54,616 nucleotides of DNA from the IMG/VR virus record IMGVR_UViG_3300027734_000091, positions 1-54,616 of that record; one strand, given 5' to 3'. Origin of the DNA: a virus. Lineage: Duplodnaviria; Caudoviricetes. The notes under the pieces are model-generated. The model was not told the DNA's origin. It ran no database searches and saw only the letters and a program-made list of their open reading frames with translations. Positions 19,199 through 51,529 of this stretch are shown here, piece after piece; position 1 is the stretch's first letter; the number at the start of each line of letters is the position of its first letter. The translations under genes were made by a program, and so were the position numbers.

Positions 19199-19389
19199 CA
19201 TTTGCTAAACCAGACAAAAAGAGTGACGACTTTGATGATGACTCGCATCGGTACTGCTCGTACCCCGGTTGTCAAAACCTGTGGTCGGTCAGGATCGACA
19301 GGCAGTTATGTAGTCGCCATGCTTGGGGTGACAACCAACCTAAACGACCGATTCCCCAAAATTACTACGAAAAAGATACGGATTTTTGA
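19195..19389 (+). CDS. Small Cys/His protein (putative Zn-binding)
   Basis: CSYPGC...LCSRH; ATGA coupling to the initiator gene. Confidence 0.55.
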   Translation: MTFAKPDKKSDDFDDDSHRYCSYPGCQNLWSVRIDRQLCSRHAWGDNQPKRPIPQNYYEKDTDF

Positions 19390-19502
19390 TGAACTTTTTT
19401 GATGCAAAGAAACTGCTGGATGAAGTGAAGGAGGGGATACAACACCCCCTGCACAAGATCACGCTGGCTCTACAACTAACTGGCGACTTAGACTTTGAAT
19501 GA
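19389..19502 (+). CDS. Hypothetical 37-aa protein
   Basis: TGATG coupling; MNFFDAKKLLDEVKEG...ALQLTGDL. Confidence 0.45.
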   Translation: MNFFDAKKLLDEVKEGIQHPLHKITLALQLTGDLDFE

Positions 19503-19737
19503 GAAGAAAGAAGGTCAAGGAGTCGATGAACATCGCCACCGTTGTCTCGTTCGGTGGGTCATCACAAAGCGCATCCAAGATCGTGCTGGTGCAATCGAGT
19601 GGCTTGAGGGTTACCGTGACCACAATGGGAAGAATCACAGAGGATGGAACAACATTCATCCCAAGTCTAGACTTGAAGAGGATGTTAAGAATCAATGGAA
19701 CAAAGGTAACAGAGGAAATGAAGGCGAATGGAAATGA
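19495..19737 (+). CDS. Hypothetical protein
   Basis: HRHRCLVRW...QWNKGNRG..GEW; fills the operon gap. Confidence 0.55.
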   Translation: MNEKKEGQGVDEHRHRCLVRWVITKRIQDRAGAIEWLEGYRDHNGKNHRGWNNIHPKSRLEEDVKNQWNKGNRGNEGEWK

Positions 19738-20081
19738 TTGAAATCACACTACCTTGGCCTCCCTCGGTCAACACATACTGGCGTAACTTTGACGGTCGCA
19801 TGATTATCAGCGCAAGAGGTCGCGAGTACCGTGAAACTGTTGGTGACCAGATGACATTGCAAAAGATGGTGAAGCACTTCAAGGGTCAACTTAAGGTTGA
19901 GATTGAAGCATTCAGACCAGACAAACGACGCAGGGATTTGGATAACCTGCTCAAAGCTACGCTGGATGGACTAGCCCATGCTGGCGTGTACGAGGATGAT
20001 TCACAGATTGTTGACCTGCGCATTTACTGGGCAAAAGACATCGGTGGAATGTTGAAGATAAAAATTGAGGAACTCGAATGA
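19728..20081 (+). CDS. rusA: Holliday junction resolvase RusA
   Basis: LPWPPSVNTYWR, PDKRRRDLDNLLKATLDGL and DDSQI motifs. Confidence 0.92.
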   Translation: MEMIEITLPWPPSVNTYWRNFDGRMIISARGREYRETVGDQMTLQKMVKHFKGQLKVEIEAFRPDKRRRDLDNLLKATLDGLAHAGVYEDDSQIVDLRIYWAKDIGGMLKIKIEELE

Positions 20082-20236
20082 AACAAGAACCAAAACTAAT
20101 CGACATCTTTGCGATGTTGGCTTTACACGCAATTTTGCGCAATGCCGATGAAGACGCGCTTCCTCAAAATATTGCTCGTGCATCGTATGACTTTGCAGAA
20201 GCAATGATGGAGGAGAGGGAGGAGCGCAATGTCTGA
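20078..20236 (+). CDS. Hypothetical protein, 52 aa
   Basis: DIFAMLAL...ASYDFAEAMM pattern seen in small phage proteins; ATGA coupling. Confidence 0.55.
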   Translation: MKQEPKLIDIFAMLALHAILRNADEDALPQNIARASYDFAEAMMEEREERNV

Positions 20237-20345
20237 ACTTTGGAACATCATGTTGTTGGTGTTTACATTGACTGGCGCACTGTGTTGGCTATGCATGGCG
20301 GTGCTGTTAGTTTGTATTTTTTTTAGCGACAAAAGGAGCGAATGA
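20229..20345 (+). CDS. Small membrane peptide, 38 aa
   Basis: Single hydrophobic helix; GGAG RBS; overlaps both neighbours. Confidence 0.45.
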   Translation: MSELWNIMLLVFTLTGALCWLCMAVLLVCIFFSDKRSE

Positions 20346-20677
20346 TGAGCGAAGAGAGAGACCCACATAAGGCTGTTGATTACATCTTGAAACACGCCGC
20401 GCTGTTTGCCAAAGCAAAGGCAGAGCGTACCTACATCGAGCATTATCGAAAGAGTCTTAAAGCCTTGTTGATGAAGCGCAGTGGCGAGTCAATGATTGGT
20501 GCGCAGGAGCGCGAAGCCTATGCGCACTCAGAGATGATTGCACTGCTGGATGGATTAAAAGAGGCTGTGGCTATCGAGGAACGCCTCAAGTGGGACATCA
20601 CAGCCGCGACATTACGCGTGGAAATATGGCGAACAGAGCAAGCGAATAACAGAGCAGAAGGGAAGGCAACATTATGA
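20342..20677 (+). CDS. Hypothetical helical protein
   Basis: 111 aa; AGGAG RBS; AQEREAYAH and EIWRTEQAN motifs. Confidence 0.6.
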   Translation: MMSEERDPHKAVDYILKHAALFAKAKAERTYIEHYRKSLKALLMKRSGESMIGAQEREAYAHSEMIALLDGLKEAVAIEERLKWDITAATLRVEIWRTEQANNRAEGKATL

Positions 20678-20883
20678 GAACAGAAGAAGACGAAGCATTC
20701 GAGGAATTAGAGCAATCACTTGGATGGCGTAAGCGCCAGATTGTCCAGCGTCAACTGAGTGCTGAAGAAAACATGGCACGCAATGAGGTACTTGAAGAGA
20801 TAGCCACGGTGTTTGACAAGATGAAAAACGGTGGAGATACGGTTGCCTCTTTTGCGTCCTACGTCAGGGGGATGAAGCAATGA
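20674..20883 (+). CDS. Hypothetical protein
   Basis: ATGA coupling; RNEVLEE motif. Confidence 0.55.
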   Translation: MRTEEDEAFEELEQSLGWRKRQIVQRQLSAEENMARNEVLEEIATVFDKMKNGGDTVASFASYVRGMKQ

Positions 20884-21026
20884 CCGATAAAGCAAAGACC
20901 TGTCAGGTGTGCCGCCTGCGACCAGCAGACAAACAGGTGAAAACCAGCAAAGGCGCTCCGCAATGGCGGTGTCAGACCTGCCATGACCTAAAAAACCGTG
21001 CAGGATTTACAAAGGGGAAGCAATGA
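20880..21026 (+). CDS. Small zinc-ribbon protein, 48 aa
   Basis: CQVC...WRCQTC; ATGA coupling at both ends. Confidence 0.55.
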   Translation: MTDKAKTCQVCRLRPADKQVKTSKGAPQWRCQTCHDLKNRAGFTKGKQ

Positions 21027-21175
21027 AAGATGACGACGACATTCAAGAATATGTTAGACCTTGGAAGGGGTTAACAGAGGATGAGGTGTTTGCACTCAGC
21101 AACACAATGCCGTATGCAGATCGTTTTGAATTTGCCAAAGCCATTGAAGCTAAGCTGAAGGAGAAAAATTCTTGA
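21023..21175 (+). CDS. Hypothetical protein, 50 aa
   Basis: RPWKGLTEDE...FAKAIEAKLKEKN motif; coupled to both neighbours. Confidence 0.6.
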   Translation: MKDDDDIQEYVRPWKGLTEDEVFALSNTMPYADRFEFAKAIEAKLKEKNS

Positions 21176-21471
21176 CCACGTTGAAAGAAAAAAAGCATAT
21201 GAACGCCGTGGCTGAATTAGGTTGTGCTGTATGCCGTCGCATGGGGTATGCAGGCACCCCAGCAGAACTACACCATCCAAGGCGATTGGCGGGGGGCTGG
21301 GGACGTTCTAGCCACATGAGTGTCATACCACTATGCCCAGAGCACCACAGAGGCGCTACGGGCTTGCACGGGCTTGGCACAAAGGGTTTCCCTAAGCACT
21401 GGGGCTACGACGAGGCAGACCTGCTCAAAGATACCCTCCAATTGCTAGGTGTTGCAGAAGAACAACATTAG
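21172..21471 (+). CDS. Ref-family (RecA-dependent, HNH-like) nuclease
   Basis: GCAVC, ELHH, IPLCPEHHRG, GLHG.G.K.F motifs. Confidence 0.75.
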   Translation: MTTLKEKKHMNAVAELGCAVCRRMGYAGTPAELHHPRRLAGGWGRSSHMSVIPLCPEHHRGATGLHGLGTKGFPKHWGYDEADLLKDTLQLLGVAEEQH

Positions 21472-21578
21472 GGTATGTCCTAATAAAATAATTGTTGACC
21501 ATGTTTAATTTGGAGTTACACTTCATCCATCGACACAGCAATAACGCATAGTCGATACAGCGAATAGGAAACAGCGAA
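21468..21578 (+). promoter_or_regulatory. Early promoter/leader cassette 1
   Basis: TAGGGTATGTCCTA box, AT tract, TTGACC-16-TACACT, atcgac/gtcgat hairpin, ACAGCGAA x2 flanking the SD. Confidence 0.7.
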
Positions 21579-21863
21579 ATGAAAAACGATCTCAACACAA
21601 ACAGCATCGACACACTGGGCGCTTTGCTTGCTCAGATCAAAGACCTGACAGATCAGGCAGATGCCATCAAAGACAGCATCAAAGAATCCGCCAGCGCAGG
21701 CGGTGCAAAGGTTGTCGAAGGTGCCTTGTTCAAAGCCACTTACGTCGAAGCAAACCGCACAGTGTTTGACAAAGACGCATTCATCAAAGAGTTTGGCGCT
21801 GACGCATACGCCAAGTACACCAAGACCACAGCAGTGTTCTCTGTCAAGGTCACATCACGTTAA
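21579..21863 (+). CDS. Hypothetical early protein
   Basis: 94 aa directly after the leader cassette. Confidence 0.7.
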   Translation: MKNDLNTNSIDTLGALLAQIKDLTDQADAIKDSIKESASAGGAKVVEGALFKATYVEANRTVFDKDAFIKEFGADAYAKYTKTTAVFSVKVTSR

Positions 21864-21870
21864 TCAACCC

Positions 21871-21905
21871 GCCCCTTCGGGGGCATAACAGCGAAGGAAA
21901 GAGAA
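21871..21905 (+). promoter_or_regulatory. UUCG hairpin plus ACAGCGAA leader
   Basis: gcccc-ttcg-ggggc, then ACAGCGAA at 21888 and an AGGA SD. Confidence 0.55.
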
Positions 21906-22106
21906 ATGATCGGAAGCCCAGAAATCTTGCACAGAAACAAAGCGCCTCGCAAAGCAGGCACGGGTACTGTGAAAATTGTAAATGTCCCACTGCTTGGCGG
22001 TTGGTACATTGTTCGCGGAAAACATCACACACCAATCAGTGGTCGTTTTGATAGTCGTGCAGATGCCGCAAATCATTTGTCTGCAAAGAATAAGGTGACA
22101 GCATGA
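21906..22106 (+). CDS. Hypothetical protein
   Basis: 66 aa with RBS. Confidence 0.6.
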   Translation: MIGSPEILHRNKAPRKAGTGTVKIVNVPLLGGWYIVRGKHHTPISGRFDSRADAANHLSAKNKVTA

Positions 22107-22309
22107 AAAAAGACCCATCAATTTATTTAAGTTACAGCGAGCGCGGCTGGATTTTGATCAATCAAGGTTCACCATTGTGCGACTACAAAAAGACCAAAGC
22201 AGAGGTCATGGAGGTGGTGAAGTTTTTCAAGATCACATTGCCAGACTGCACTTGGAACGGTGATCGCGGTGAGTTTGTTGTTACAGACACCATCGAGGAA
22301 ACAACGTGA
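22103..22309 (+). CDS. Hypothetical protein
   Basis: 68 aa; ATGA coupling. Confidence 0.6.
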   Translation: MKKDPSIYLSYSERGWILINQGSPLCDYKKTKAEVMEVVKFFKITLPDCTWNGDRGEFVVTDTIEETT

Positions 22310-22605
22310 CCATATCATTTGAACAGCGTAAAAGGGACTTCTGGGACTGGCACAAGGCTAACCCAAAGGTGTGGGAATACTTTGAAAGATTTTCTCTTGA
22401 GGTGGTGCGCACTGGACGCAAGAAGGTTAGCCACTGGCTGATCATCAATCGCATACGGTGGGAGGTCTACCTTGAGACCACAGGGGAAGACTTCAAGATC
22501 AGCAACGACTACATCGCGTTTTATGCGAGGCTTTGGATAGCACGTCACCCAGAGCACAAAGACTTATTCACAATCAAGAGAATGATAGGGGAACCAAATG
22601 AGTGA
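22306..22605 (+). CDS. Hypothetical phage protein
   Basis: WHKANPKVWEYFERF, IINRIRWE and FKISNDYIAFYARL motifs. Confidence 0.65.
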   Translation: MTISFEQRKRDFWDWHKANPKVWEYFERFSLEVVRTGRKKVSHWLIINRIRWEVYLETTGEDFKISNDYIAFYARLWIARHPEHKDLFTIKRMIGEPNE

Positions 22606-22759
22606 AACAGTAATGAGCGAATACATCCGAGGCTTTGATCACGGGTGCGACTACATCGTGACCGAGATAGAACGATACATCAAAGAGTGCAACAGCCATG
22701 ATGCACTGGTGCTAGTTGACTTGGTTAAGCGACTCAAGATGGAAGACAAACCAAAATGA
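22598..22759 (+). CDS. Hypothetical protein, 53 aa
   Basis: Read manually; its stop overlaps the MTase ATG (ATGA). Confidence 0.5.
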   Translation: MSETVMSEYIRGFDHGCDYIVTEIERYIKECNSHDALVLVDLVKRLKMEDKPK

Positions 22760-23781
22760 AATTCATTGAATTGTTTGCAGGCATTGGTGGGTTCCGCCTT
22801 GGATTAGAGAAGGCGGGTCACGAGTGCGTGTGGGCTAACGAATTTGTACAAAAGGCGGCAAGTATTTATGAACACAACTTTAAACACAAACCAGACACTA
22901 GAGACATTAGAACTGTTCGACCAGACGAAATCCCAGATGCAGAACTTCTATGCGGAGGATTCCCGTGCGCGACTTTCAGCGTTGCTGGAAAGCGATCTGG
23001 ATTCTCGACAGAAGATACTCGCGGTACTCTCTTTTTTGAAATCTGTCGCATTCTCAGAGACAAGCGAATACCTTATGTTTTCCTTGAAAACGTCAAAGGA
23101 CTTCTCAACCACGATGGGGGAAGAACCTTTGCTGTCATCATCTCAAGTCTTGATGAACTGGGGTACGACGTTCAATGGGAAGTTGTTAACAGCCAAAATT
23201 TCGGAGTCCCGCAAAATCGAGAACGGGTATTCATTGTCGGACATCTTAGAGGACAACCCCGACCCCAAATATTTCCTCTCGGATTCTGCGTTTCAGAAAA
23301 TGTTCTCGAAAAAGAAAAAGGAACGCAAGGAGAAATTCGAGGATGCGAATCCGAATCAGGACGACCTGTTCTCATGCCTTTTGTAACAGGCAAAGTGATG
23401 CAATTCAAAGACGTGTTCCCAACACTTGATGGTCACTACTGGAAGGGAATACAAAACAATCAAGGTCGCGGTGCTGTGATGCAGGTGCGACCAGTTTTAA
23501 CGCCTCACCGTGATAGCAAACGTCAGAACGGTCGTCGCGTTAAAGATCACAATGAGTCAGCGTTTACGTTGACTGCTCAGGACAGACATGGAGTTATTGT
23601 TGGTGAGCGCCTGCGCAGACTCACGCCACTTGAATGCGAGCGTTTGCAGGGGCTACCAGATAACTTCACAAAGTTCTATGAGGACGGCACGCAAGTAAGC
23701 GATGCAGAGCGTTATGAGCGATGCGGTCGCACTGTCACCATTCCCGTTATTTACGAAATTGCAAAGAGGTTCCCATTATGA
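22756..23781 (+). CDS. C5-cytosine DNA methyltransferase-fold enzyme, predicted carboxymethyltransferase
   Basis: Motif I ELFAGIGG, IV GFPCATFS (C71,A72), VI ENVKG, VIII QNRERVF, IX RRLTPLECERLQG, X CGRTV (R325). Confidence 0.9.
   Translation: MKFIELFAGIGGFRLGLEKAGHECVWANEFVQKAASIYEHNFKHKPDTRDIRTVRPDEIPDAELLCGGFPCATFSVAGKRSGFSTEDTRGTLFFEICRILRDKRIPYVFLENVKGLLNHDGGRTFAVIISSLDELGYDVQWEVVNSQNFGVPQNRERVFIVGHLRGQPRPQIFPLGFCVSENVLEKEKGTQGEIRGCESESGRPVLMPFVTGKVMQFKDVFPTLDGHYWKGIQNNQGRGAVMQVRPVLTPHRDSKRQNGRRVKDHNESAFTLTAQDRHGVIVGERLRRLTPLECERLQGLPDNFTKFYEDGTQVSDAERYERCGRTVTIPVIYEIAKRFPL
22868..23386 (+). CDS. Overprinted +1-frame ORF inside the MTase (EcoHK31I-beta-like arrangement)
   Basis: Long open alternate frame containing SLKTS, WG..NG and SLSDILEDNPDPKYFLS; start uncertain. 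Confidence 0.5.
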   Translation: MNTTLNTNQTLETLELFDQTKSQMQNFYAEDSRARLSALLESDLDSRQKILAVLSFLKSVAFSETSEYLMFSLKTSKDFSTTMGEEPLLSSSQVLMNWGTTFNGKLLTAKISESRKIENGYSLSDILEDNPDPKYFLSDSAFQKMFSKKKKERKEKFEDANPNQDDLFSCLL

Positions 23782-24452
23782 ATTCTTGGACATTTGAATC
23801 AAAAGAAATTGCAGAGACATTTGACTCTCATGTGCGCGAACAGTTACCGTGGTACGACATGGTCACCGATGCGGTGGTTTACATTGCAAGTAACTACATG
23901 ACAAAGGGTTGCGTTATCACTGAGGTTGGATCATCAACAGGCAACATGACAAAGGCGCTGTTGCCAATTTTCAATGAGCGCGATGGGGTTAGTTATCAAG
24001 CCATCGAAATAAGCGAAGAAATGTGTGAGGTGTTTAATAAAAATATTCAACACCCGTTGGTTACTTGTATGCAAGCTAACATCTTAGACTTTTCAGACGC
24101 CAACATGGATGACGTTGATACAAGCCATGTCACCATTTTGTTTTTGACTTTAATGTTTATTCCCGTTAACGAGCGCGAAAAGTTAATGAAGATGTTGATA
24201 AAAAATTCATACAAAGGTGGATGCATTATTGTGGTGGACAAGGTGCTAGATCACGGCGGGTACTTTGCGACCGTCCTGAAGCGCCTTACCATGCATTTCA
24301 AGCTACAGCAGGGCGCCAAGCCAGAGGACGTGCTCAACAAAGAGATGAGCCTAGCAGGGGTGCAGATACCTATCGACCCAGCCATTCTGGGAGAGAACGC
24401 CAAACCGTTTTTTCGCATGGGTGAGTTTGCAGGGTGGGTAATTGAGACTTAG
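23778..24452 (+). CDS. cmoA: CmoA-like carboxy-SAM synthase homolog (class I SAM fold)
   Basis: WTF...FDSHVREQLPWY, EVGSSTG, LTLMFIP..R, GGCIIVVDK, FK.QQG....V.NK..SL.GV and FFRMGEF are collinear with E. coli CmoA as recalled; ATG at 23778 overlaps the MTase stop. Confidence 0.75.
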   Translation: MNSWTFESKEIAETFDSHVREQLPWYDMVTDAVVYIASNYMTKGCVITEVGSSTGNMTKALLPIFNERDGVSYQAIEISEEMCEVFNKNIQHPLVTCMQANILDFSDANMDDVDTSHVTILFLTLMFIPVNEREKLMKMLIKNSYKGGCIIVVDKVLDHGGYFATVLKRLTMHFKLQQGAKPEDVLNKEMSLAGVQIPIDPAILGENAKPFFRMGEFAGWVIET

Positions 24453-24560
24453 GGAAAATACTTAGAAAATATTTTTAAATAGTTGTTGACTCGTTTAATT
24501 TGGGGTTACAATAACTACACTGCAACATCGCAGTGACAGCGAAACAAAGGACAGCGAATC
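24449..24560 (+). promoter_or_regulatory. Early promoter/leader cassette 2
   Basis: TAGGGAAAATACTTA, TTGACT..GTTTAA..TACAAT, cactgc/gcagtg hairpin, ACAGCGAA x2. Confidence 0.7.
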
Positions 24561-25343
24561 ATGGAAAAAGCAAACTTCTCCCAACTCTTGAACGATGCCA
24601 TCAATCAGCCCGGTATCATCAGCAAGTGCTATAGCACCTTCCACGGCTACAGCCTTGGCAACCAACTCTTGGCATACAGCCAGTGCGTGGCACGCGACAT
24701 TCCCCTTGGCCCTATCGCCACATTCAAAAAGTGGAAAGACCTCGGTCGCTCTGTGAGTAAGGGTCAAAAAGCTATCGCCTTGGTAATGCCCGTCACCATC
24801 AGCAAAAAAGATGATGCAGGCGAAAAGACAGGCGAAGTGTTCTCATTGTTCACCCTGCGCAACAACTGGTTTGTGCTCGGTCAGACTGAAGGCGACGACT
24901 ACGCCGCTGAGGTGGTGATCCCAACATGGGACAAGGTCAAGGCTTTGGAAACCCTCAGCATCACAGAGGTGCCATTCAGCCACACTGATGGCAACTGCCA
25001 AGGCTACGCCTATGCGACCAGCATTGCTGTCAACCCAGTGGCTGTATTGCCCCACAAAACCCGTTTCCATGAGATCGCTCACGTCGTGCTCGGTCACACA
25101 AAGGAAGGTCAACTGTCAGACAGCGAAGCAACGCCCCGTGACGTGCGCGAAGTCGAGGCTGAGGGTGTTGCCTACATCCTGTGCTCTTTGCTCGGTCTGG
25201 AGGGCTTACACGAGTCTCGTGGCTATATCCAGAACTGGTTGCAGGGTGCAGAGGTAACCGACAAGACAGCCCAGCGCATTTTCAGCGCCGCCAACAAGAT
25301 TTTGGAGGCTGGACAGGATAAGGGTAAGTCCTTAGAAAAATAA
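24561..25343 (+). CDS. ArdC-like antirestriction protein (ssDNA-binding domain plus zincin metallopeptidase domain)
   Basis: YSLGNQLL, ATFKKWKDLGRSVSKGQKA, HEIAH (HExxH), EVEAEGVAY, SRGYIQNW. Confidence 0.8.
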   Translation: MEKANFSQLLNDAINQPGIISKCYSTFHGYSLGNQLLAYSQCVARDIPLGPIATFKKWKDLGRSVSKGQKAIALVMPVTISKKDDAGEKTGEVFSLFTLRNNWFVLGQTEGDDYAAEVVIPTWDKVKALETLSITEVPFSHTDGNCQGYAYATSIAVNPVAVLPHKTRFHEIAHVVLGHTKEGQLSDSEATPRDVREVEAEGVAYILCSLLGLEGLHESRGYIQNWLQGAEVTDKTAQRIFSAANKILEAGQDKGKSLEK

Positions 25344-25439
25344 TTAGCAGAGGGGGTTGACGCCCCCTTTGTTTAACGTACAATTACACACATACACCGA
25401 ACGGTTCAGTGTAAAACAGCGAAATGAAAGTGAATCCAA
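25319..25439 (+). promoter_or_regulatory. Early promoter/leader cassette 3 (the -35 lies in a terminator-like hairpin)
   Basis: TAAGGGTAAGTCCTTA; agggggt-tgac-gccccct; TTGACG-16-TACAAT; ttacac/gtgtaa hairpin; ACAGCGAA. Confidence 0.7.
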
Positions 25440-26255
25440 ATGACACATCCTTTTGAAAAAGCAGGCTTAGGTAAGGCTCCCTTCTCATGCACAGGCGTGA
25501 GCGAGAATGTCTGGGACAACGGCGACGGCACCACCAAGGGCGGCGGTGTCTGCGACTACTGCGGTACTGGCATTCGCTGGGAGTTCTGGATCAAGGGTTC
25601 TGTTGCTGGTGCCAAGCAGTTCAAGGTCGGTTGCGATTGCGTCGCCAAGACTGGCTGGGGGATTGATCGCTTTTTGGAAGTCCGCGCAGAGCACACACGC
25701 GCACGTCGTCAGGCTGGTGCTACAAAGCGCCGTGAGTCACGTCAGGCACGCATTGAGGCAGAACGCGCTCAGAGAGCCGCCGAGCGCCTTGTGGCTGGTC
25801 AAGCATGGCGCGACGCCAACAGCGCCTTGGTAGCCCGTTTAGAGGCTTATACGGGTGCCAATGAGTTCCTGCGCGGTTCAATCCAGAACTTGGCTTATTG
25901 GGGTAGCCTGTCAGCCCGTCAAGTAGAGGCAGTAGAGTCCTGCTTCGCGGTGATCGACCGTCAAGAGTTTGCTCGTGCTAACAGCCAGTTCATTGGCAAC
26001 GTGGGTGACAAGGTCACCGTGACAATCACCGTCGAGCGTATCGTGGTGATCAAGTCCGAGTTCTACGGTGACAACTACATCACCATCGCCCATGATGAGT
26101 CGGGCAACGTCTACACATACAAAGGCAAAACCAACATCGGTGCCAAGGGTGAGACCAACACAATCAAAGCCAGCATCAAGGCACACGTCGAGTACAAGGG
26201 CGTAAAACAGACAGCTATCCAGCGCCCAAAAGTGCTGGAAGAGGTGTTAGGGTAA
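25440..26255 (+). CDS. Hypothetical protein with N-terminal Zn-binding motif and C-terminal OB-fold-like domain
   Basis: CDYCG...VGCDC; FIGNVGDKV...HVEYKGVKQT.IQRP. Confidence 0.65.
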   Translation: MTHPFEKAGLGKAPFSCTGVSENVWDNGDGTTKGGGVCDYCGTGIRWEFWIKGSVAGAKQFKVGCDCVAKTGWGIDRFLEVRAEHTRARRQAGATKRRESRQARIEAERAQRAAERLVAGQAWRDANSALVARLEAYTGANEFLRGSIQNLAYWGSLSARQVEAVESCFAVIDRQEFARANSQFIGNVGDKVTVTITVERIVVIKSEFYGDNYITIAHDESGNVYTYKGKTNIGAKGETNTIKASIKAHVEYKGVKQTAIQRPKVLEEVLG

Positions 26256-26363
26256 GTCCTAATAAAATAATTTGATCGAAGGGGTTGACAGCCCTTTCGT
26301 TTAACATACAATTACACTTAAGCACCGAATATCTCGATGCTAAAACAGCGAAGGAACAGTGAA
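26247..26363 (+). promoter_or_regulatory. Early promoter/leader cassette 4
   Basis: TAGGGTAAGTCCTA; cgaaggggt-tgaca-gccctttcg; TTGACA-16-TACAAT; hairpin; ACAGCGAA and ACAGTGAA. Confidence 0.7.
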
Positions 26364-26645
26364 ATGACAAACGCAACAAACGCAACACAATACTCTTGGA
26401 AATACTTGGTCTGCTCAATTGCAGTAACAGACCTTGCAGACCTTGAAAGCAATGGCGCTATCCCTAGCGATTGGAAGTTTGCAATTAAAAACGGCAACAC
26501 TTTGTACGACGAGGTTGGATCGTCATGGCGCGAGAGGTCAGACAATACGGTTTATGTGTGCCACAAAGATGCACCAGAGTCTAAATATCGTTGGTTGCAC
26601 CCCGACACAATTGTGCAAATTTATAAAGTTTCAACACACGGTTGA
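26364..26645 (+). CDS. Hypothetical early protein
   Basis: ATG after the cassette 4 SD. Confidence 0.6.
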   Translation: MTNATNATQYSWKYLVCSIAVTDLADLESNGAIPSDWKFAIKNGNTLYDEVGSSWRERSDNTVYVCHKDAPESKYRWLHPDTIVQIYKVSTHG

Positions 26646-30207: not shown

Positions 30208-33200
30208 ATGCAAAAACAGTTACAACGTAAAAAAGGCGGTCTTGCTCGAATGGCTGGCGGTGGTCAACCATCCAAAGTATTGGGTGGCAACATCATGGCT
30301 GGTGCAAGCTGGAACAGCCTAAACAACCTACTGGTCAATGACCTAACACAAGCGACAGGGCAACCCACAACAAACACAGCGGTAGGTGGTGCGACAACAG
30401 CCGACACCTATCAGCAACTGATGGACTTCATCAATGATGGTGGATCGTTTGACCCTAACGCTACAGTGTTCCTGCAAACGGGTGGCGTAGACTTTTTAAA
30501 GGGTGTACCCAAAGACGAGATCAAAGGGAACATCGACAAGATTCTTTCGACGTTAGAAGCGCAGGGTGTCAGCGTTGTTTTGACTGGCTCACCTTATGCC
30601 TCATCAATGGAGGATGTTGTCAGTAACAACTTTGATCCAAAGATTGATCCCCTTTTTCAAGAGGTTGCCAGCAAGTACAACAACGTCGCGCTGGTTGACT
30701 CAATGGGAGACATCTTGCAAGACAAGAGCCTGCTGTCTGACAACCTGCATCCTAACGAGACTGGAACCCGCAGGTATAACGACGACGTGCTGGGTGCTCT
30801 TAATCAACTGAAACAGCGTCAAGAACCGCAAACCCAAGGCGGCAGAGAAGCATCTGTGAACATTCCCCAAGAGATTGAGCGGATTACACAGGCTAGCGTT
30901 CCAGAAGAAAGGGATGTGCAAGACAACAAAGTTCAAGAGACTTTAGACATCCCTCAAGAGATTGAGCGCATCACACAAAAAAATGAACCAAGCAATGTAT
31001 TGCAAAATACTCAGGTGTCGCAAATAGCTGATCCAATTAAGCAAGAGTTTCAAGAAGCTATTACTCAACCTGCACCGCCTCCAGTTAACCTTCAGACCAC
31101 ACCAGAAGTACCAAGCACTCCAGACTACAGTCGTGCCTATGGTGCATTGGGCGGTGCTGAAAGTGTAAGCAACTTACGCAATCAGTTTTTGGGTATGGGT
31201 TTAGATGAAGGCGCTATTGGTGAAGTCTTTTCTAAATACTACTCACCTGAGTCTGATGCAACCCTTTTGGCTAAAAAAGGCGGCGCTATCCGTATGCAAG
31301 TCGGTGGTTTGACTGGACTAGCTAACCTCGGTAAAGCTGGCACCAGATTGTCTAAGGCAGAGATCGCTGGACTGCGTGCTCGAGGCATGGGGGTGCCGGG
31401 CATTGACTTCGCTGACCCTCTGAAAGCTCCCACCATGCGGATGTCTGAGGCGTTAGGTAATGTCGGCGCTGAAGGTAAGACACTAAACTTCACTGAGGCT
31501 GATCGTTCCAGAGTCTTTGCTGAAAACATGGGCGGTATAGGATTTACAGGTTTACAGAACTACTCACAACCACATAAACAGGCGCGGACTGTTTGGGGCT
31601 TTGGGAATCAATCTACCGCTGAGAAAAAGATTGCACAGAATGATCCAGAGAAAACAATATGGACAACCTACGCTGGATCACCAGAGCAACACAAATCCAA
31701 CACGGTGGTGGTCAAAGATGCCGTCAAGACACTGCAAGCGGCAAATCAAGCTGGCACTGTTAACCCAGAGCAAATCAAGCTAATCAACCAACGTATCAAG
31801 CAAGCAAAGAACGACAAGGGCAACCCGCTGTTCTCTGACGACTTTGACATTACCGACCCCCAAGCAATCAATGCGGCTACGACCTTTGAGCGCCGTACAG
31901 CTATCAGCGATGCATTGATGGGTGTGGGTGTCAGGAAGCCGATGATTAGCAAAGAGTTCAAAGCGGCTAACCCTAACGTCAAATACAACGATGCCTCAAA
32001 CATCAGTCGCATCTTGACTCGCGAGACTGACCCAGTATTGGCTAATGCAAACACGTTTGATGTTGGGCCGCACCTGTTTGTGATGGACAACAAGATCATC
32101 AACCGAGCAGACCTTAACGAGGCATTCCCAGTTCAAGTGACTGGTGACGATCTTGGTATGAGGTTTAAACCAACACCAGTTCGATCTGCCGCGCCAGAAT
32201 TTATGAAGAAAAAAGGCTACGGGCCAACCGACCCAGTCAATGCTTGGGCTATGTCGCGTGGCAACCCAAAGCAGTTTGTCAGCGAAGAGTATTTGACCAA
32301 CCTCCAAAAGGAAGGTTACAAGGATGGTGGATCAGCAGAGCGTCCACCTTTCCACGACTTCGATAAGATTATGAACCGCAAAGACGGAGGTACTGTGAAC
32401 ACATCATTTGAACAACGCCTAAAGAGCGCACTCGACCAACATATGGCTGTTGGAGGCGTCGTAGAGCGTCGCTACGCTGAAGCTGGCTCAGTTCCTGCAC
32501 CTACCCCCCAAGAGTTGGAAAAGATGGCTGACGCGCAGGGTGCGGCATTTGGTGTATTCCCCCAGATGGCAAGCCAACGGTTCCAGCAACCATCCCAAAC
32601 AATGGACAAGGCGTCTGAGATGCTGAAGGCTCAGGTTACAAAGGAGTGGGAGCAGGCGGGACGACCCGGCGGAGCCAAGGGCTTATCCCTTCGCATCGGC
32701 GCGGTGTTGGCTGGACAAGTTCCTGACATTGCTAATCTTGCGCAGAGCGTGATCCCCGGTCTAAACAAGCCTGCCTCAGTGCTCGACCCTGAAGGAGAGA
32801 AGGTCGCTAAGTTCCCCATGTCTGGTACGTCTACCGACATCAAGAACGCCATGCGCAACAAGGGAATGATCAACGAGGACGAGTACCCTATTGCTGAAAT
32901 GTTAGGTGCCTTTGCCGCACCGTATGCCGCTGTTAAAGCACCACGCGCTATTGAAGGTGGTCTTAACTCAGTGACTGCCGCCGCTCGTCGTCCATTTACC
33001 CCAGCAACTCTGACGACTGAGGCTGTTGCTCCTGACTTAGCAAAGTTCAAACCACGCGAGTTTCAAGATGAAGTTACTAGGCAAATGATTGGTGAAGGCG
33101 CGGCTGTTCCGATGACCAACATGGGTGGTCGCAAGACTACTCAGCGCGGCGGTCAAGGCGTCTACATGAACAACGAAGGACAACTTGAGTTGAACCCTAT

Positions 33201-33717
33201 GGTTGGTGTTGACGTACCTCGTGCTGGAAACCTTTCCACCAATAAATCATTGCGTCGCGACATTGCAACCGCAGGTCAAGAGTTGAACCAAGAGGCTATG
33301 GCGGCACATCGCTTTGTTCCTATGGCAACCAACAACATTAAAGATGCTACAGCGATGATGGTGACTGGCCCTAACGGTCGCGCCCTGAGCAACGAAGAAG
33401 TAATTGCGCTGGGGAAGAACATCCCCGGTCTCATCGTCAGCCACAGCCCCCGCACTGGTGGCGTGTTCCTTGCCAACGACCCTTACGCTGGCGGTGATCC
33501 AATGAAGAAGTTCCTCAACGCCCAATCCGTTGCTGGTCAAATTCTGGGAAATAAAGCCAAGATTCAATTTGGTAAAGCTGACGCTAACAAAGACTTGATG
33601 TACATGATGCGCCATCAATATGCTGAAGAAGGCGGTCGTGGTACATCCCCAACGGCGCAGGCTATACGCGAGTCACTCAAGCGCAAAGATCAAACGATCC
33701 CTACTGTGCGTAACTAA
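30208..33717 (+). CDS. Large multidomain protein with N-terminal SGNH/GDSL-like hydrolase domain
   Basis: GASW, AVGGATT, QTGGVD and DNLHPN blocks; modules separated by xxGG motifs; between terL and portal. Confidence 0.6.
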   Translation: MQKQLQRKKGGLARMAGGGQPSKVLGGNIMAGASWNSLNNLLVNDLTQATGQPTTNTAVGGATTADTYQQLMDFINDGGSFDPNATVFLQTGGVDFLKGVPKDEIKGNIDKILSTLEAQGVSVVLTGSPYASSMEDVVSNNFDPKIDPLFQEVASKYNNVALVDSMGDILQDKSLLSDNLHPNETGTRRYNDDVLGALNQLKQRQEPQTQGGREASVNIPQEIERITQASVPEERDVQDNKVQETLDIPQEIERITQKNEPSNVLQNTQVSQIADPIKQEFQEAITQPAPPPVNLQTTPEVPSTPDYSRAYGALGGAESVSNLRNQFLGMGLDEGAIGEVFSKYYSPESDATLLAKKGGAIRMQVGGLTGLANLGKAGTRLSKAEIAGLRARGMGVPGIDFADPLKAPTMRMSEALGNVGAEGKTLNFTEADRSRVFAENMGGIGFTGLQNYSQPHKQARTVWGFGNQSTAEKKIAQNDPEKTIWTTYAGSPEQHKSNTVVVKDAVKTLQAANQAGTVNPEQIKLINQRIKQAKNDKGNPLFSDDFDITDPQAINAATTFERRTAISDALMGVGVRKPMISKEFKAANPNVKYNDASNISRILTRETDPVLANANTFDVGPHLFVMDNKIINRADLNEAFPVQVTGDDLGMRFKPTPVRSAAPEFMKKKGYGPTDPVNAWAMSRGNPKQFVSEEYLTNLQKEGYKDGGSAERPPFHDFDKIMNRKDGGTVNTSFEQRLKSALDQHMAVGGVVERRYAEAGSVPAPTPQELEKMADAQGAAFGVFPQMASQRFQQPSQTMDKASEMLKAQVTKEWEQAGRPGGAKGLSLRIGAVLAGQVPDIANLAQSVIPGLNKPASVLDPEGEKVAKFPMSGTSTDIKNAMRNKGMINEDEYPIAEMLGAFAAPYAAVKAPRAIEGGLNSVTAAARRPFTPATLTTEAVAPDLAKFKPREFQDEVTRQMIGEGAAVPMTNMGGRKTTQRGGQGVYMNNEGQLELNPMVGVDVPRAGNLSTNKSLRRDIATAGQELNQEAMAAHRFVPMATNNIKDATAMMVTGPNGRALSNEEVIALGKNIPGLIVSHSPRTGGVFLANDPYAGGDPMKKFLNAQSVAGQILGNKAKIQFGKADANKDLMYMMRHQYAEEGGRGTSPTAQAIRESLKRKDQTIPTVRN

Positions 33718-36387: not shown

Positions 36388-36572
36388 GGTACATATCCGA
36401 CTTTATCGGTGCTGTAGAAGCGCGTAAAGCTGAGATTGCTAAGTCGGTTATTGCGGGAAACTGCATCAACTACGAGGCATATCAAAGGCTAGTCGGTACC
36501 AATGCGGGTCTTGAAGAAGCCCTTGACATCCTAAACAACCTTTTAAAGGAAGAAGAAGACGATGACAGATAG
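36384..36572 (+). CDS. Hypothetical head-module protein
   Basis: YEAYQRLVG...GL motif; precedes the GroES gene. Confidence 0.6.
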   Translation: MRYISDFIGAVEARKAEIAKSVIAGNCINYEAYQRLVGTNAGLEEALDILNNLLKEEEDDDR

Positions 36573-36984
36573 CACGGTAGCGGGTAATGCCGCTGATTTG
36601 CAGGATGCTTTTCCTGCTGTAGACCCCGGAGCACTGCCCCTTGGCGCACGAGTATTAGTTCAGTTACGAATCGCCAAGAAACGAATGACAGAATCGGGGA
36701 TTATCTTGCCTGAAGAAACCCGCGATACCGAGAGGGCGCAAAACCCAGTCGGTAAAGTGGTGGCTATCGGCCCATTAGCGTTCAAGAAGCGCGACACAAT
36801 GGAGGCGTGGCCTGAAGGCTCGTGGTGCAGTGTGGGTGATTACCTGCGCGTACCCAAATGGACTGGCGACCGCTGGTTTGTTCCACATAACAACGAAGAA
36901 AACGTCGAGTTTATGGTGCTGAACGACCACGAAGTGATCGCCAAAATCACTGGTAACCCCCTTGAAGTGAAGGCATTCGTATGA
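36562..36984 (+). CDS. groES: GroES/Cpn10-like co-chaperonin
   Basis: PLGARVLV, TESGIILP, GKVVAIGP, VGD and LNDHEVIA motifs. Confidence 0.85.
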   Translation: MTDSTVAGNAADLQDAFPAVDPGALPLGARVLVQLRIAKKRMTESGIILPEETRDTERAQNPVGKVVAIGPLAFKKRDTMEAWPEGSWCSVGDYLRVPKWTGDRWFVPHNNEENVEFMVLNDHEVIAKITGNPLEVKAFV

Positions 36985-47701: not shown

Positions 47702-48625
47702 ATGTCTCTTACAAAAGTTGGTGGAATTCTTTCCGCTGGTTTAAACGGCATTAACTACCCTGTCACAGCGGTGGAATACTTATGTGTGGCTGGCGGGGGT
47801 GGAGGTGGCGTAAGTAGCGCCAATACGCCCGGAGGTGGCGGTGGTGGTGCTGGTGGTTTACTTACAGCTACTGGATACACAATAACTGTTGGCTCTAGCA
47901 TTACTGTAACGGTAGGTGCTGGAGGTGCTGGATCATCTACAAATAACACTGCTGGCAGTCAAGGTTCAAGTTCTGTTTTTGGCGCTATTACGTCTACAGG
48001 TGGCGGCGGAGGTGGCGCATACAGTGGCGGCACGGCTACTTCTGGCGGTTCTGGCGGTGGTGGCGGATGGCAAGGAGGATCAGGCAATAATGGCGGCGCA
48101 GGAACTTCTGGTCAGGGGAATGCTGGCGGTAACGCTTATTCTGCTGGAAATTTTCAAGGTGGTGCGGGCGGCGGCGGCGCAGGTTCAGCGGGATTAACTC
48201 CTACTGCAAGTACAAATTTAGGCGGTAATGGTGGTGCAGGTATTGCATCATCTATTTCAGGCGCACAAATTCAATATGCTAGTGGTGGAGGTGGCGGCGG
48301 TGGATTTGGTCAAAGTCCAGCAGGTGCGGGTGGATTGGGCGGTACTAATACATCTGGTAATGGGGGTACAGCGGCAAATCCAGCCAATTCACTAAATCTG
48401 GGAACTGCGGCAATTGCAAATACTGGAAATGGCGGGGGTGGAGCAGGTGCAACATTTCCAACTTACAGCACAGTAGCTGGAGCCGCAGGAGGCTCTGGCA
48501 TCGTAATCCTACGCTACCCATCTTACTTAGCCCCTGCTACGTCAACAACTGGATCACCAGAAACATACATTGCTGGCGGATGGCGTGTGTACGAGTTTGT
48601 AGCATCTGGAACAATTACATTCTGA
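47702..48625 (+). CDS. Glycine-rich domain adhesin-like protein 1
   Basis: VEYL.VAGGGGG...GGSGIVILRY domain. Confidence 0.7.
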   Translation: MSLTKVGGILSAGLNGINYPVTAVEYLCVAGGGGGGVSSANTPGGGGGGAGGLLTATGYTITVGSSITVTVGAGGAGSSTNNTAGSQGSSSVFGAITSTGGGGGGAYSGGTATSGGSGGGGGWQGGSGNNGGAGTSGQGNAGGNAYSAGNFQGGAGGGGAGSAGLTPTASTNLGGNGGAGIASSISGAQIQYASGGGGGGGFGQSPAGAGGLGGTNTSGNGGTAANPANSLNLGTAAIANTGNGGGGAGATFPTYSTVAGAAGGSGIVILRYPSYLAPATSTTGSPETYIAGGWRVYEFVASGTITF

Positions 48626-48631
48626 GGATAT

Positions 48632-50257: not shown

Positions 50258-50258
50258 A

Positions 50259-51152
50259 ATGAGTCAAACTTTATTAGGTGGATTCCTTTCCGCAACCTTT
50301 AACCCACTGTCTGGTGCGCCTACGACTGTTGAATATCTAGTGGTCGCTGGTGGTGGTGGTGCAGGCGGTGGAGGTGGTGGAGCAGGTGGTCTTTTGACTG
50401 CGGCTGGCTTTGCTGTTGCCGCTGGTTCTGCTTTAACTGTTACTGTGGGTGCTGGTGGTGCAGGTGCGGCAACTGTTAGCGGTGCTATTGGTAATGGAAC
50501 CATCGGTTCTAATTCTGTTTTTAGTTCTATTACTGCTACGGGTGGTGGTTTTGGTGGTGGCCCAAACGCCACTCAGAATGGTGGTGCTGGCGGTTCTGGT
50601 GGTGGCGGTAGTCAAGATGGAAATTCAACTGGCGGCGCTGGCACATCTGGTCAAGGCAATGCAGGCGGTGGTTCAGGCGGTACTTACCCGCCCGGTTACT
50701 TTGCCGCTGGTGGCGGTGGTGGAGCAGGTTCTATTGGTGGAAATTCTTTAGTAGTTGCGTCTGGTTCTTTAGGCGCTGGTGGCAATGGTGGTACTGGACT
50801 TTGCTCAACCATTACAGGCGCAAGAGTGTTTTACGCTGGCGGCGGTGGCGGTGGGTCTAGTACAAACACATCCACTTTAACTACTGGTGGTCTGGGCGGC
50901 GGTGGAGGCGGTGGCAATGGCGGTCTAGCGGCTTCTCAAAACGGCAATCCGGGTACAGCCAACACAGGTGGCGGTGGAGGCGGAGCCGAATTTGAAGGTA
51001 CTTCTGCTGGCACTGGTGGCTCTGGCATTGTCATCATTCGTTGGCCTTCATCACAATCACCACCCACTTCCACAACAGGAAGCCCTCAGATAAACTACTC
51101 TGATGGGTATCAGATTTATACTTTCACATCTTCTGGCACTATTACTTTTTAA
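50259..51152 (+). CDS. Glycine-rich domain adhesin-like protein 3
   Basis: One Gly-rich domain ending YTFTSSGTITF. Confidence 0.7.
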   Translation: MSQTLLGGFLSATFNPLSGAPTTVEYLVVAGGGGAGGGGGGAGGLLTAAGFAVAAGSALTVTVGAGGAGAATVSGAIGNGTIGSNSVFSSITATGGGFGGGPNATQNGGAGGSGGGGSQDGNSTGGAGTSGQGNAGGGSGGTYPPGYFAAGGGGGAGSIGGNSLVVASGSLGAGGNGGTGLCSTITGARVFYAGGGGGGSSTNTSTLTTGGLGGGGGGGNGGLAASQNGNPGTANTGGGGGGAEFEGTSAGTGGSGIVIIRWPSSQSPPTSTTGSPQINYSDGYQIYTFTSSGTITF

Positions 51153-51161
51153 GGAGCAAAC

Positions 51162-51518
51162 ATGAGCCATTTCGCTAAAGTAGAAAACGGTGTAGTGACG
51201 CAAGTCATCGTCATCGAGCAGGACGTTTTGAACACAGGTCACTGGGGCGATCCAGCATCTTGGGTTCAGACAAGTTACAACACTTCTGGTGGAGTTCACT
51301 CACAAGGTGGTACGCCACTGCGTAAGAATTTTGCTGGTATTGGATATACATACGACTCAGGCCGTGATGCGTTTATTCCTCCCAAGCCATTTGCGTCTTG
51401 GTTGTTGGATGAAGCCACTTGCCATTGGAATGCACCAACACCCATGCCCGTAGAAGAAGGTAAACGCTTTACATGGGACGAACCCACAACATCTTGGGTT
51501 GAAGTAGTTACTGCCTAA
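51162..51518 (+). CDS. Tail-associated protein within the Gly-rich cluster
   Basis: MSHFAKV.NG.V..VIV, WVQTSYN, RKNFAGIGYTYD..RDAFIPPKPF.SW. Confidence 0.7.
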   Translation: MSHFAKVENGVVTQVIVIEQDVLNTGHWGDPASWVQTSYNTSGGVHSQGGTPLRKNFAGIGYTYDSGRDAFIPPKPFASWLLDEATCHWNAPTPMPVEEGKRFTWDEPTTSWVEVVTA

Positions 51519-51529
51519 TAGGAATAATC

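What the first reader, a model, noticed from the sequence alone, without database searches (positions are those of the whole stretch)
22756..24452. Candidate natural DNA carboxymethylation system: rewired C5-MTase coupled to a CmoA-like cofactor synthase
Seen: the C5-MTase has all canonical motifs but two unusual residues. Motif IV reads PC-A (A72, codon 22969-22971) instead of PC-Q. Motif X reads G-R-TV (R325, codon 23728-23730) instead of G-N-[AS]V. Its stop overlaps the ATG of a CmoA-like gene. Established: these positions correspond to M.HhaI Q82/N304 and M.MpeI Q136/N374. Ala substitutions there enlarge the cofactor pocket for bulky SAM analogues, and M.MpeI N374K uses carboxy-SAM to make 5-carboxymethylcytosine. 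CmoA makes carboxy-SAM from SAM and prephenate. Inference: the phage makes its own Cx-SAM and writes 5cxmC (or another non-methyl group) on DNA as an anti-restriction mark, next to ArdC. I recall a recent report of a cyanophage enzyme of this kind, so novelty should be checked. No downstream hypermodifying ligase is evident here.
Basis: partly seen in the sequence, partly recalled or inferred. Interest (0 to 1): 0.93.

Follow-up and report, generated by a model that had tools for sequence, protein, structure and literature searches.

The report
Second lineage of phage DNA carboxymethyltransferase
This phage carries a cytosine methyltransferase look-alike and a carboxy-SAM synthase that together most likely put a carboxymethyl group on its DNA, a kind of system first published in 2025, here in a separately evolved form without the follow-up ligase.

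Summary
The MTase runs 22756-23781 (341 aa). A72 is codon 22969-71 and R325 is codon 23728-30. Its stop overlaps the ATG of a CmoA homologue at 23778-24452.

Yang et al. 2025 (PMC12783734) showed that phage CmoA makes carboxy-SAM. They also showed that CmoX, a C5-MTase homologue with Arg in place of M.HhaI Asn304, writes 5-carboxymethylcytosine. R325 aligns with that Arg.

What is new is the lineage.
- The window's enzyme is HhaI/Dcm-like, with GFPC-A in motif IV. The paper's survey required an SPPC motif, so this type falls outside it as written.
- 42 of 42 viral relatives with A72 and R325 have a CmoA gene directly downstream; 0 of 3 Gln relatives (Asn confirmed in 2) do.
- No protein mixes A with N or Q with R among 150 nearest cluster representatives.
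- A single clade of all Arg-bearing enzymes is rejected (AU p 3.5e-11).
- Both lineages carry the same ER-x-GR motif.

No CmoY ligase is in this complete genome. Near-identical phages carry a CmoX-CmoY-CmoA cassette at the same site. Nothing here is shown biochemically.

The parts
22756..23781 (+). CmoX-like C5-cytosine carboxymethyltransferase candidate (341 aa, P0003), GFPC-A / ER-x-GR type
   Evidence: Pfam PF00145 2.8e-83. 186.6 bits to M.HhaI, 59 bits to SpCmoX 8yf3. R325 aligns with SpCmoX R350.
22969..22971 (+). Codon GCG = A72, at the M.HhaI Gln82 position (motif IV, GFPC-A)
   Evidence: 119 of 120 nearest 90% clusters have A here and 1 has G. SpCmoX has Ser here.
23716..23730 (+). Codons for E321-R322-C323-G324-R325 (motif X, ER-x-GR). 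R325 (23728-23730) is at the M.HhaI Asn304 / SpCmoX R350 position.
   Evidence: ER-x-GR is found in 7 of 8 Arg-bearing rows of this lineage (window included), 120 of 122 SpCmoX relatives and 0 of 127 GFPC Gln/Asn representatives.
23778..24452 (+). CmoA-like carboxy-SAM synthase candidate (224 aa, P0004)
   Evidence: PDB hits are only CmoA/YecO. TIGR00740 CmoA is the best NCBIfam hit at 4.6e-13 but below its cut-off. 43% identical to the Moraxella phage Mcat8 homologue and 23% to the assayed SpCmoA. Residue check.
23778..23781 (+). ATGA overlap of the MTase stop and the CmoA start (translational coupling)
   Evidence: The same junction (offset 0-6 nt) is seen in 27 of the 44 related loci with CmoA.
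22598..22759 (+). Small upstream ORF (53 aa) whose stop overlaps the MTase ATG (ATGA at 22756-22759)
   Evidence: Conserved next to the MTase in related loci at 42-96% identity. Function unknown.
24561..25343 (+). ArdC-like anti-restriction protein (N-terminal ArdC domain plus zincin-like C-terminal half)
   Evidence: Pfam ArdcN 3.8e-10, Peptidase_M78 1e-4, MPTase-PolyVal 1.2e-3.

Best explanation
The two overlapping genes form a two-enzyme DNA carboxymethylation module of the CmoA/CmoX kind. The CmoA homologue (23778-24452) converts host SAM plus prephenate into carboxy-SAM. The C5-MTase homologue (22756-23781) flips out a target cytosine and attacks C6 with Cys71. It then transfers the carboxymethyl group of carboxy-SAM to C5, giving 5-carboxymethylcytosine. 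Arg325 (with Glu321 and Arg322) would hold the cofactor carboxylate. The small Ala72, replacing the usual Gln, would make room for it and disfavour plain methyl transfer.

The complete genome holds no CmoY-type amide ligase, so 5cxmC is probably the final mark in this phage. The mark would protect the DNA from host restriction, alongside the neighbouring ArdC-like protein.

The enzyme belongs to an HhaI/Dcm-like (GFPC) lineage. That lineage reached the Arg solution separately from the published SPPC-type CmoX.

Shown here: the sequence features, the alignments, the gene linkage and the phylogenetic tests. Inferred: both enzyme activities, the product, the absence of further modification and the anti-restriction role.
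For: **Precedent.** SpCmoA makes Cx-SAM. SpCmoX makes 5cxmdC only with Cx-SAM. R350 contacts the carboxymethyl group, and R350N is inactive (PMC12783734, Results read).

**MTase residues.** R325 aligns with R350. The SpCmoX cofactor contacts F25, E47, F48 and D69, the nucleophile C98, and the ENV Glu and QxRxR Args are invariant in the three-way alignment, as F7, E29, F30, D50, C71, E111, R155 and R157.

**Linkage (48 viral loci).**
- 42 of 42 loci with both A72 and R325 have a CmoA homologue 0-808 nt downstream.
- 2 N-terminally cut loci with R325 also have one.
- 3 loci with Gln (Asn read at motif X in 2 of them) have none anywhere in the locus.
- 1 locus ends 7 nt after the match, so it cannot tell.
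- The partner CmoA comes from three lineages: window-type 36, SpCmoA-like 7, PaBG-like 1. The link therefore survives gene replacement.
- 8 of the 48 loci carry a CmoY homologue (35-38% identity to SpCmoY) between the MTase and CmoA.

**Covariation.** Among the 150 nearest 50%-cluster representatives, 121 are F-Q-N. Those with A72 and a readable motif X all have R. None mixes A with N or Q with R.

**CmoA homologue.** It keeps the EcCmoA positions Y39, G64, S66, F137 and K198, and keeps acids at 62, 89 and 164. Where it departs (N90, N132, R199->E), the assayed SpCmoA departs too.

**No CmoB.** The best tblastn E-value in the window is 6.3, so a tRNA role lacks its transferase.
Against: No biochemical or sequencing evidence of any modification exists for this phage.

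- The CmoA homologue scores 49.4 bits against TIGR00740, far below the 193.3 cut-off, and is only 23% identical to SpCmoA.
- It lacks the Arg199 that binds the carboxylate in E. coli CmoA (PMC3663124).
- The MTase lacks the SPPC motif used to define CmoX in the paper.
- Arg is not universal among CmoA-linked MTases. Two Staphylococcus phages pair cmoA with a GSPC-Q / G-G enzyme, so the residue logic is not the only route.
- Absence of a ligase rests on Pfam scans of 40 ORFs and a tblastn with SpCmoY. Small ORFs and families without a Pfam model, such as 25440-26255, were not excluded.
- Linkage counts are not phylogenetically independent.
Confidence: 0.8

Rival explanations
1. 5cxmC is made but is only an intermediate. 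An unrecognised phage or host enzyme converts it further, for example to an amide as in S-B43, so the final mark is a hypermodified base.
For: In S-B43 virion DNA only the glycine amide was found, not 5cxmdC. Near-identical phages (L026, L027, L030) carry a CmoY homologue in the same cassette. Several window ORFs have no family, for example 25440-26255.
Against: tblastn with SpCmoY finds nothing in the window even at E<=10. Queries from PaBG (asparagine synthase) and TurkishDelight (amidotransferase ligase) find nothing at E<=1e-4. Pfam scans of 40 ORFs give no ligase, ATP-grasp or asparagine-synthase domain. The record is rated 100% complete. 36 of the 44 related loci with CmoA also lack CmoY within the DNA held.
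Confidence: 0.12
2. The MTase is an ordinary SAM-dependent 5mC methyltransferase with unusual but tolerated residues. The neighbouring CmoA-like protein has a separate job, such as draining host SAM, acting on tRNA or methylating another substrate.
For: The MTase keeps all canonical catalytic motifs. The CmoA homologue is below the NCBIfam cut-off and also gives weak hits to generic methyltransferase families. The paper itself raises SAM depletion as a possible side effect.
Against: The A/R state and CmoA adjacency go together without exception. A72/R325 are conserved in 119 of the 120 nearest clusters, and the remaining one has G72 with R325. Q82A cuts methylation about 16-fold in M.HhaI. Wild-type SpCmoX did not accept SAM. 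There is no CmoB in the genome. A CmoY homologue is inserted between the two genes in 8 relatives.
Confidence: 0.05
3. The CmoA homologue makes a SAM derivative other than carboxy-SAM, and the MTase transfers that other group.
For: The homologue is only 23% identical to SpCmoA, carries Glu at the EcCmoA Arg199 position and has a shorter C-terminus.
Against: The assayed SpCmoA has the same Glu and the same other departures, yet makes Cx-SAM. The same MTase clade also pairs with SpCmoA-like (7 loci) and PaBG-like (1 locus) CmoA genes. The Arg in the MTase pocket fits an acidic group.
Confidence: 0.03

Closest known systems
CmoA-CmoX(-CmoY) system of Synechococcus phage S-B43 (Yang et al., Nat Commun 2025, PMC12783734; PDB 8YF3)
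   Same: A C5-MTase homologue with Arg at the M.HhaI Asn304 position and a small residue at the Gln82 position. It sits beside a phage CmoA. The cofactor-contact residues are conserved. CmoY homologues are present in 8 related loci.
   Different: Only 31% identity to SpCmoX. Motif IV is GFPC-A, not SPPC-S. The gene order is MTase then CmoA with overlapping codons, and there is no CmoY in this genome. The CmoA is 23% identical to SpCmoA. The TRD is unrelated, so the GC specificity of SpCmoX need not apply. GGCC and AGCT are strongly avoided in this genome, which argues weakly against blanket GC modification.
M.HhaI and its engineered Q82A/N304A variants (Lukinavicius et al. 2012, PMC3526304)
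   Same: The N-terminal 162 residues align with M.HhaI at 2.7e-49 (171.1 bits). The two deviant residues sit exactly at the two conserved positions that were engineered to open the cofactor pocket.
   Different: The natural enzyme has Arg, not Ala, at position 304. The TRD does not align with that of M.HhaI, so the target site is unknown.
M.MpeI N374K, the engineered carboxymethyltransferase (cited in PMC12783734; other papers seen only as search listings)
   Same: A basic residue at the motif X Asn position gives use of Cx-SAM.
   Different: Engineered Lys versus natural Arg. It is CpG-specific and has only 61.5 bits to the window protein over residues 35-162.
E. coli CmoA (PDB 4GEK/4IWN) and H. 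influenzae YecO (1IM8)
   Same: These are the only PDB matches of the 224-aa protein. Y39, G64, S66, F137 and K198 and the acids at 62, 89 and 164 are kept.
   Different: Arg199 is replaced by Glu, as in SpCmoA. There is no CmoB partner. The protein is about 20 residues shorter.

Membership tests
CmoX (DNA cytosine C5-carboxymethyltransferase, as defined in PMC12783734) | C5-MTase fold with the catalytic Cys of motif IV and the ENV and QxRxR motifs | tested here: met
   PF00145 2.8e-83. C71, E111, R155 and R157 are invariant with SpCmoX.
CmoX (DNA cytosine C5-carboxymethyltransferase, as defined in PMC12783734) | Arg at SpCmoX R350 (M.HhaI Asn304), the carboxylate contact | tested here: met
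   R325 aligns with R350 and with HhaI N304.
CmoX (DNA cytosine C5-carboxymethyltransferase, as defined in PMC12783734) | 'SPPC' motif (S95 P96 P97 C98), used as a filter in the paper's survey | tested here: not met
   The window has GGFPC. All 122 SpCmoX-side sequences examined have SPPCS. This feature marks a lineage rather than a mechanism.
CmoX (DNA cytosine C5-carboxymethyltransferase, as defined in PMC12783734) | Genomic association with a phage CmoA | tested here: met
   Overlapping genes in the window. 44 of 44 informative Arg-bearing related loci have CmoA.
CmoX (DNA cytosine C5-carboxymethyltransferase, as defined in PMC12783734) | Transfers carboxymethyl from Cx-SAM and not methyl from SAM | not testable with these tools
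   Needs an enzyme assay or LC-MS of DNA.
CmoX (DNA cytosine C5-carboxymethyltransferase, as defined in PMC12783734) | Common descent with SpCmoX to the exclusion of ordinary Gln/Asn MTases | tested here: not met
   One clade of all 22 Arg-bearing rows is rejected: lnL 212.9 lower, AU p 3.5e-11, 49 rows, LG+G4. The window's C-terminal motif IX-X segment is 53% identical on average to GFPC Gln/Asn enzymes and 30% to the SPPC Arg group.
CmoA (carboxy-SAM synthase) | Passes the curated family model (TIGR00740 / NF011995) | tested here: not met
   It is the best hit but scores 49.4 bits against a cut-off of 193.3. The assayed SpCmoA also fails, at 115.6.
CmoA (carboxy-SAM synthase) | Cofactor-binding residues of EcCmoA (Y39, D62, G64, S66, D89, N90, D117, N132, F137, E164, R199; PMC3663124) | tested here: inconclusive
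   Kept or conservatively replaced: Y39, E for D62, G64, S66, E for D89, F137, D for E164. Changed: N90, D117, N132, R199->E. SpCmoA shares all four of these changes.
CmoA (carboxy-SAM synthase) | Makes Cx-SAM from SAM and prephenate | not testable with these tools
   Needs an assay.
ArdC (anti-restriction) | N-terminal ArdC domain plus C-terminal metalloprotease-like domain | tested here: met
   PF08401 3.8e-10 (above cut-off). PF06114 1e-4 (above its cut-off). PF18818 1.2e-3 (below its cut-off).

The most novel reading that the evidence does not exclude
Natural DNA carboxymethyltransferases arose at least twice. An HhaI/Dcm-like GFPC lineage, abundant in uncultivated phages and outside the published SPPC-defined CmoX set, converged on the same pocket: a small residue at Gln82 plus an ER-x-GR motif X. 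In this lineage the modification cassette is swapped between near-identical phage backbones. One version is a two-gene cassette (CmoX-CmoA, bare 5cxmC as the final mark). The other is a three-gene cassette (CmoX-CmoY-CmoA, an amide), with a different target-recognition domain. Related phages would thus differ in both the chemistry and the sites of their DNA mark.
Probability: 0.55. Interest if true: 0.62.

Novelty: new variant of a known kind. Interest (0 to 1): 0.5.

Why it matters
The concept of phage-made carboxy-SAM and 5cxmC in DNA is already published, so the finding is not a new kind of system. It still adds three things.

1. The published survey, as its filter is written, would miss a whole HhaI-like lineage. 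That lineage fills all 120 of the nearest 90%-identity clusters. Natural DNA carboxymethylation is therefore likely wider than the 5,615 sequences reported.
2. Two lineages arriving at the same ER-x-GR motif plus a small residue at Gln82 amounts to a natural replicate of the engineering done on M.HhaI and M.MpeI. It points to residues (E321, R322, A72) that the structural paper does not discuss in the sections I read.
3. The lineage is about 60% identical to M.HhaI in the catalytic half and has varied TRDs. That makes it a ready source of sequence-specific carboxymethyltransferases for DNA labelling. The ligase-free and ligase-bearing sister cassettes offer a natural comparison of 5cxmC against its amide in evading restriction.

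Tried and rejected
**First tree.** This quick tree had 71 rows and no Gln/Asn outgroups beyond the SPPC group. It placed the GFPC-A-R rows as a grade between the SPPC group and a starred Gln/Asn clade, which would fit a single origin. I added 8 more outgroups: 4 phage Gln/Asn MTases, E. coli Dcm and 3 further SPPC-type phage MTases. After that, 14 of the 15 A/R rows formed a starred clade among the GFPC Gln/Asn enzymes. I treat the first topology as long-branch attraction, but both trees are quick searches with SH-aLRT support only.

**Odd row P0103.** It turned out to be a chimera. Holding all 15 A/R rows together gave a higher likelihood than the free search.

**AU test.** The test under the mixture model on 79 rows did not finish (one search returned no answer). 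I reran it on 49 rows, keeping 16 of the 46 Gln/Asn representative rows (every third), under LG+G4. The tool's notes say this setting has a somewhat higher false-rejection rate.

**Searches that gave little.**
- The search for homologous proteins with SpCmoX and the search for related loci with alignment A3 returned only close SpCmoX relatives and gave no outgroups.
- The genome-contig scan with the MTase found no close relative in bacterial genomes (best 55% over residues 1-175), so no host was identified.
- The promoter/terminator scan gave counts no higher than its shuffled controls, so I make no claim from it.

**Not attempted.**
- I did not predict a structure or a complex. Cx-SAM is not among the ligands offered, and the tools return no coordinates for measuring contacts.
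- The target sequence of the enzyme could not be inferred, because the TRD aligns with no solved MTase.
- Supplementary files of PMC12783734 are closed. I could not check whether any GFPC-type sequence is among its 5,615 CmoX; my statement rests on the filter as worded in the main text.
- A claim that no other paper describes CmoX rests on two searches: '5-carboxymethylcytosine' + 'phage' (6 papers) and 'CmoX' (56 papers, 1 relevant).
Full report
**What is there.** The window is a complete 54,616-bp virus record, rated 100% complete. It carries terminase, capsid, SU10-type adaptor and lysis genes.

- At 22756-23781 (+) lies a 341-aa C5-cytosine methyltransferase homologue (PF00145 2.8e-83).
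- Its stop overlaps, as ATGA, the start of a 224-aa gene at 23778-24452.
- A 53-aa ORF upstream overlaps the MTase start in the same way.
- An ArdC-like gene follows at 24561-25343.

**Alignment with reference enzymes.** The N-terminal 162 residues align with M.HhaI at 2.7e-49. Here GFPCATFS lies against GFPCQAFS, so Gln82 becomes Ala72. In the C-terminal stretch CGRTV lies against FGNSV, so Asn304 becomes Arg325. The TRD between them does not align with M.HhaI. Gln82, Tyr254 and Asn304 line the cofactor pocket. Q82A lowers methylation about 16-fold and raises activity with an extended cofactor.

**Already known.** A search for '5-carboxymethylcytosine' plus 'phage' found Yang et al., Nat Commun 2025 (PMC12783734). 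I read its outline, Results and Discussion and passages.

- In Synechococcus phage S-B43 a phage CmoA makes carboxy-SAM.
- CmoX, a C5-MTase homologue, makes 5-carboxymethylcytosine at GC sites using only Cx-SAM.
- The crystal structure 8YF3 shows Arg350, at the HhaI Asn304 position, on the carboxymethyl group. R350N is dead.
- CmoY ligates glycine to the carboxyl group.
- A search for 'CmoX' found no second relevant paper.

I took the S-B43 genes from GenBank. R325 aligns with R350 and A72 with Ser99. The named cofactor contacts of SpCmoX are invariant.

**The partner protein.**
- Its only PDB matches at E<=0.01 are E. coli CmoA and H. influenzae YecO.
- Its best NCBIfam model is CmoA TIGR00740 (4.6e-13), though at 49.4 bits it is far below the 193.3 cut-off. 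The assayed SpCmoA (115.6 bits) is also below it.
- Against E. coli CmoA read from K-12, it keeps Y39, G64, S66, F137 and K198. It keeps acids at 62, 89 and 164.
- Arg199, the carboxylate contact in EcCmoA (PMC3663124), is Glu here. It is also Glu in SpCmoA, which makes Cx-SAM.
- So the departure does not argue against the activity, but the assignment stays an inference.
- No CmoB is in the genome.

**Linkage.** A scan of viral contigs with the MTase gave 48 loci at 43-92% identity. Read by alignment:

| Loci | State | CmoA homologue |
|---|---|---|
| 42 | A72 and R325 | present in all 42, 0-808 nt downstream |
| 2 | N-terminally cut, R325 | present in both |
| 1 | contig ends 7 nt after the match | cannot tell |
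| 3 | Gln at 72 (Asn at 325 in 2, unread in 1) | none anywhere in the locus |

- The CmoA partners fall into three lineages: window-type 36, SpCmoA-like 7, PaBG-like 1.
- Eight loci carry a CmoY homologue (35-38% identity to SpCmoY) between the MTase and CmoA.
- Among the 150 nearest 50%-identity representatives of 1.84 billion proteins, 121 are F-Q-N. Those with Ala72 and a readable motix X all have Arg, and none mixes the states.
- Of the 120 nearest 90%-identity clusters (the window's own included), 119 are A/R and one is G/R.
- These counts are not independent events, but the pattern has no exception.

**A separate lineage.**
- The window enzyme scores 186.6 bits to M.HhaI, 129 to M.HaeIII and 59 to SpCmoX. 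SpCmoX scores 80 to M.HaeIII and 52 to M.HhaI.
- A first quick tree without further outgroups put the A/R rows as a grade next to the SPPC group.
- I then added 8 more outgroups: 4 phage Gln/Asn MTases, E. coli Dcm and 3 further SPPC-type phage MTases. After that, 14 of 15 A/R rows form a starred clade beside or within the GFPC Gln/Asn enzymes, with Dcm outside them. The SPPC group sits apart.
- Holding all 22 Arg-bearing rows together costs 212.9 log-likelihood units (AU p 3.5e-11; 49 of 79 rows, LG+G4).
- Holding the 15 GFPC-A-R rows together is not rejected, and that tree is in fact better than the free one.
- The stray row, P0103, is a natural chimera: a GFPC-A N-half joined to an SPPC-CmoX C-half.
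- The window's own motif IX-X segment is of the GFPC type: 53% mean identity to Gln/Asn representatives against 30% to the SPPC Arg group. The Arg therefore arose in place and was not imported.
- Both lineages share E-R-x-G-R. It occurs in 7 of 8 Arg-bearing rows of this lineage (window included), 120 of 122 SpCmoX relatives and 0 of 127 GFPC Gln/Asn representatives.

**No ligase, and a swapped cassette.**
- tblastn with SpCmoY finds nothing in the window at E<=10. Two other ligase queries find nothing at E<=1e-4.
- Pfam scans of 40 ORFs show no ligase domain.
- L026, L027 and L030 share the window's backbone. Flanks are 90-97% identical in DNA, and most matched flanking proteins are 87-100% identical. 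Yet their MTase is 65-66% identical and their CmoA 62-63% identical.
- In those loci DNA similarity runs through the catalytic N-half (85%), drops to 69% or to no detectable match over the TRD and C-terminal part, and a CmoY gene is inserted.
- The module is therefore exchanged as a cassette, with and without the ligase.

**Verdict.** The system is a new variant of a kind published in December 2025, not a new kind. All activities remain inferred.

Noticed in passing
L026, L027, L030 (viral contigs) versus window 19200-26600: These loci share a near-identical backbone with the window but carry a three-gene MTase-CmoY-CmoA cassette with a different TRD, in place of the window's two-gene cassette. 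This looks like cassette exchange by recombination within the conserved catalytic half of the MTase.
   Followed up: partly
protein P0103 (314 aa): A natural chimera. The N-terminal half is of the GFPC-A type (70% identity to window residues 1-165). The C-terminal half is of the SPPC-CmoX type (31% identity to window residues 283-338; it resembles SpCmoX).
   Followed up: partly
L139 (Bacteroides LoVEphage), L140 (Cellulophaga phi18:3), L053 (Flavobacterium FPSV-S2), L052 (Bacillus BMBtp14), L138 (Methylophilales phage Melnitz-2): These are C5-MTases with SPPC-S and Met at the motif X Asn position; Melnitz-2 has SPPC-P and Leu. No CmoA was found in the DNA held (2.5 kb each side for L138-L140, only about 0.3 kb for L052 and L053). 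These may be further non-canonical cofactor pockets of unknown meaning.
   Followed up: no
L152 (Staphylococcus phage SPbeta-like), L153 (Staphylococcus phage vB-SscS-F1): Here cmoA sits next to a C5-MTase that keeps Gln (GSPC-Q) and has Gly-Gly at motif X; in F1 a CmoY homologue lies between the two genes. This may be a third pocket solution among CmoA-linked MTases.
   Followed up: partly
whole window: Palindromic 4-mers: GGCC is at 0.21 of expectation, CCGG at 0.34 and AGCT at 0.38, while GCGC is at 0.90. This suggests restriction avoidance at sites the modification does not cover.
   Followed up: no
alignment of CmoA homologues: The Arg199 that binds the carboxylate in E. coli CmoA is Glu in the assayed SpCmoA and in the window-type CmoAs. 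Only the PaBG homologue keeps Arg. The neighbouring Lys198 is invariant in all 15 sequences.
   Followed up: partly
window 47702-53164: Four consecutive genes each carry the Pfam Gly_rich_2 domain (1.6e-15 to 2.5e-49). They are probably tail fibre or spike paralogues.
   Followed up: no
window 30208-33717: A 1169-aa protein directly after the large terminase has an N-terminal GDSL lipase/acylhydrolase domain (2e-13). The rest has no family.
   Followed up: no
window 36562-36984: A phage-encoded GroES-like co-chaperonin (Cpn10, 7.4e-9) lies upstream of the capsid genes.
   Followed up: no
window 25440-26255: A 271-aa protein after ArdC has a Cys-rich N-terminus and no Pfam family. It is conserved in some relatives (68-88% identity in L006, L007, L026 and L030).
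   Followed up: no
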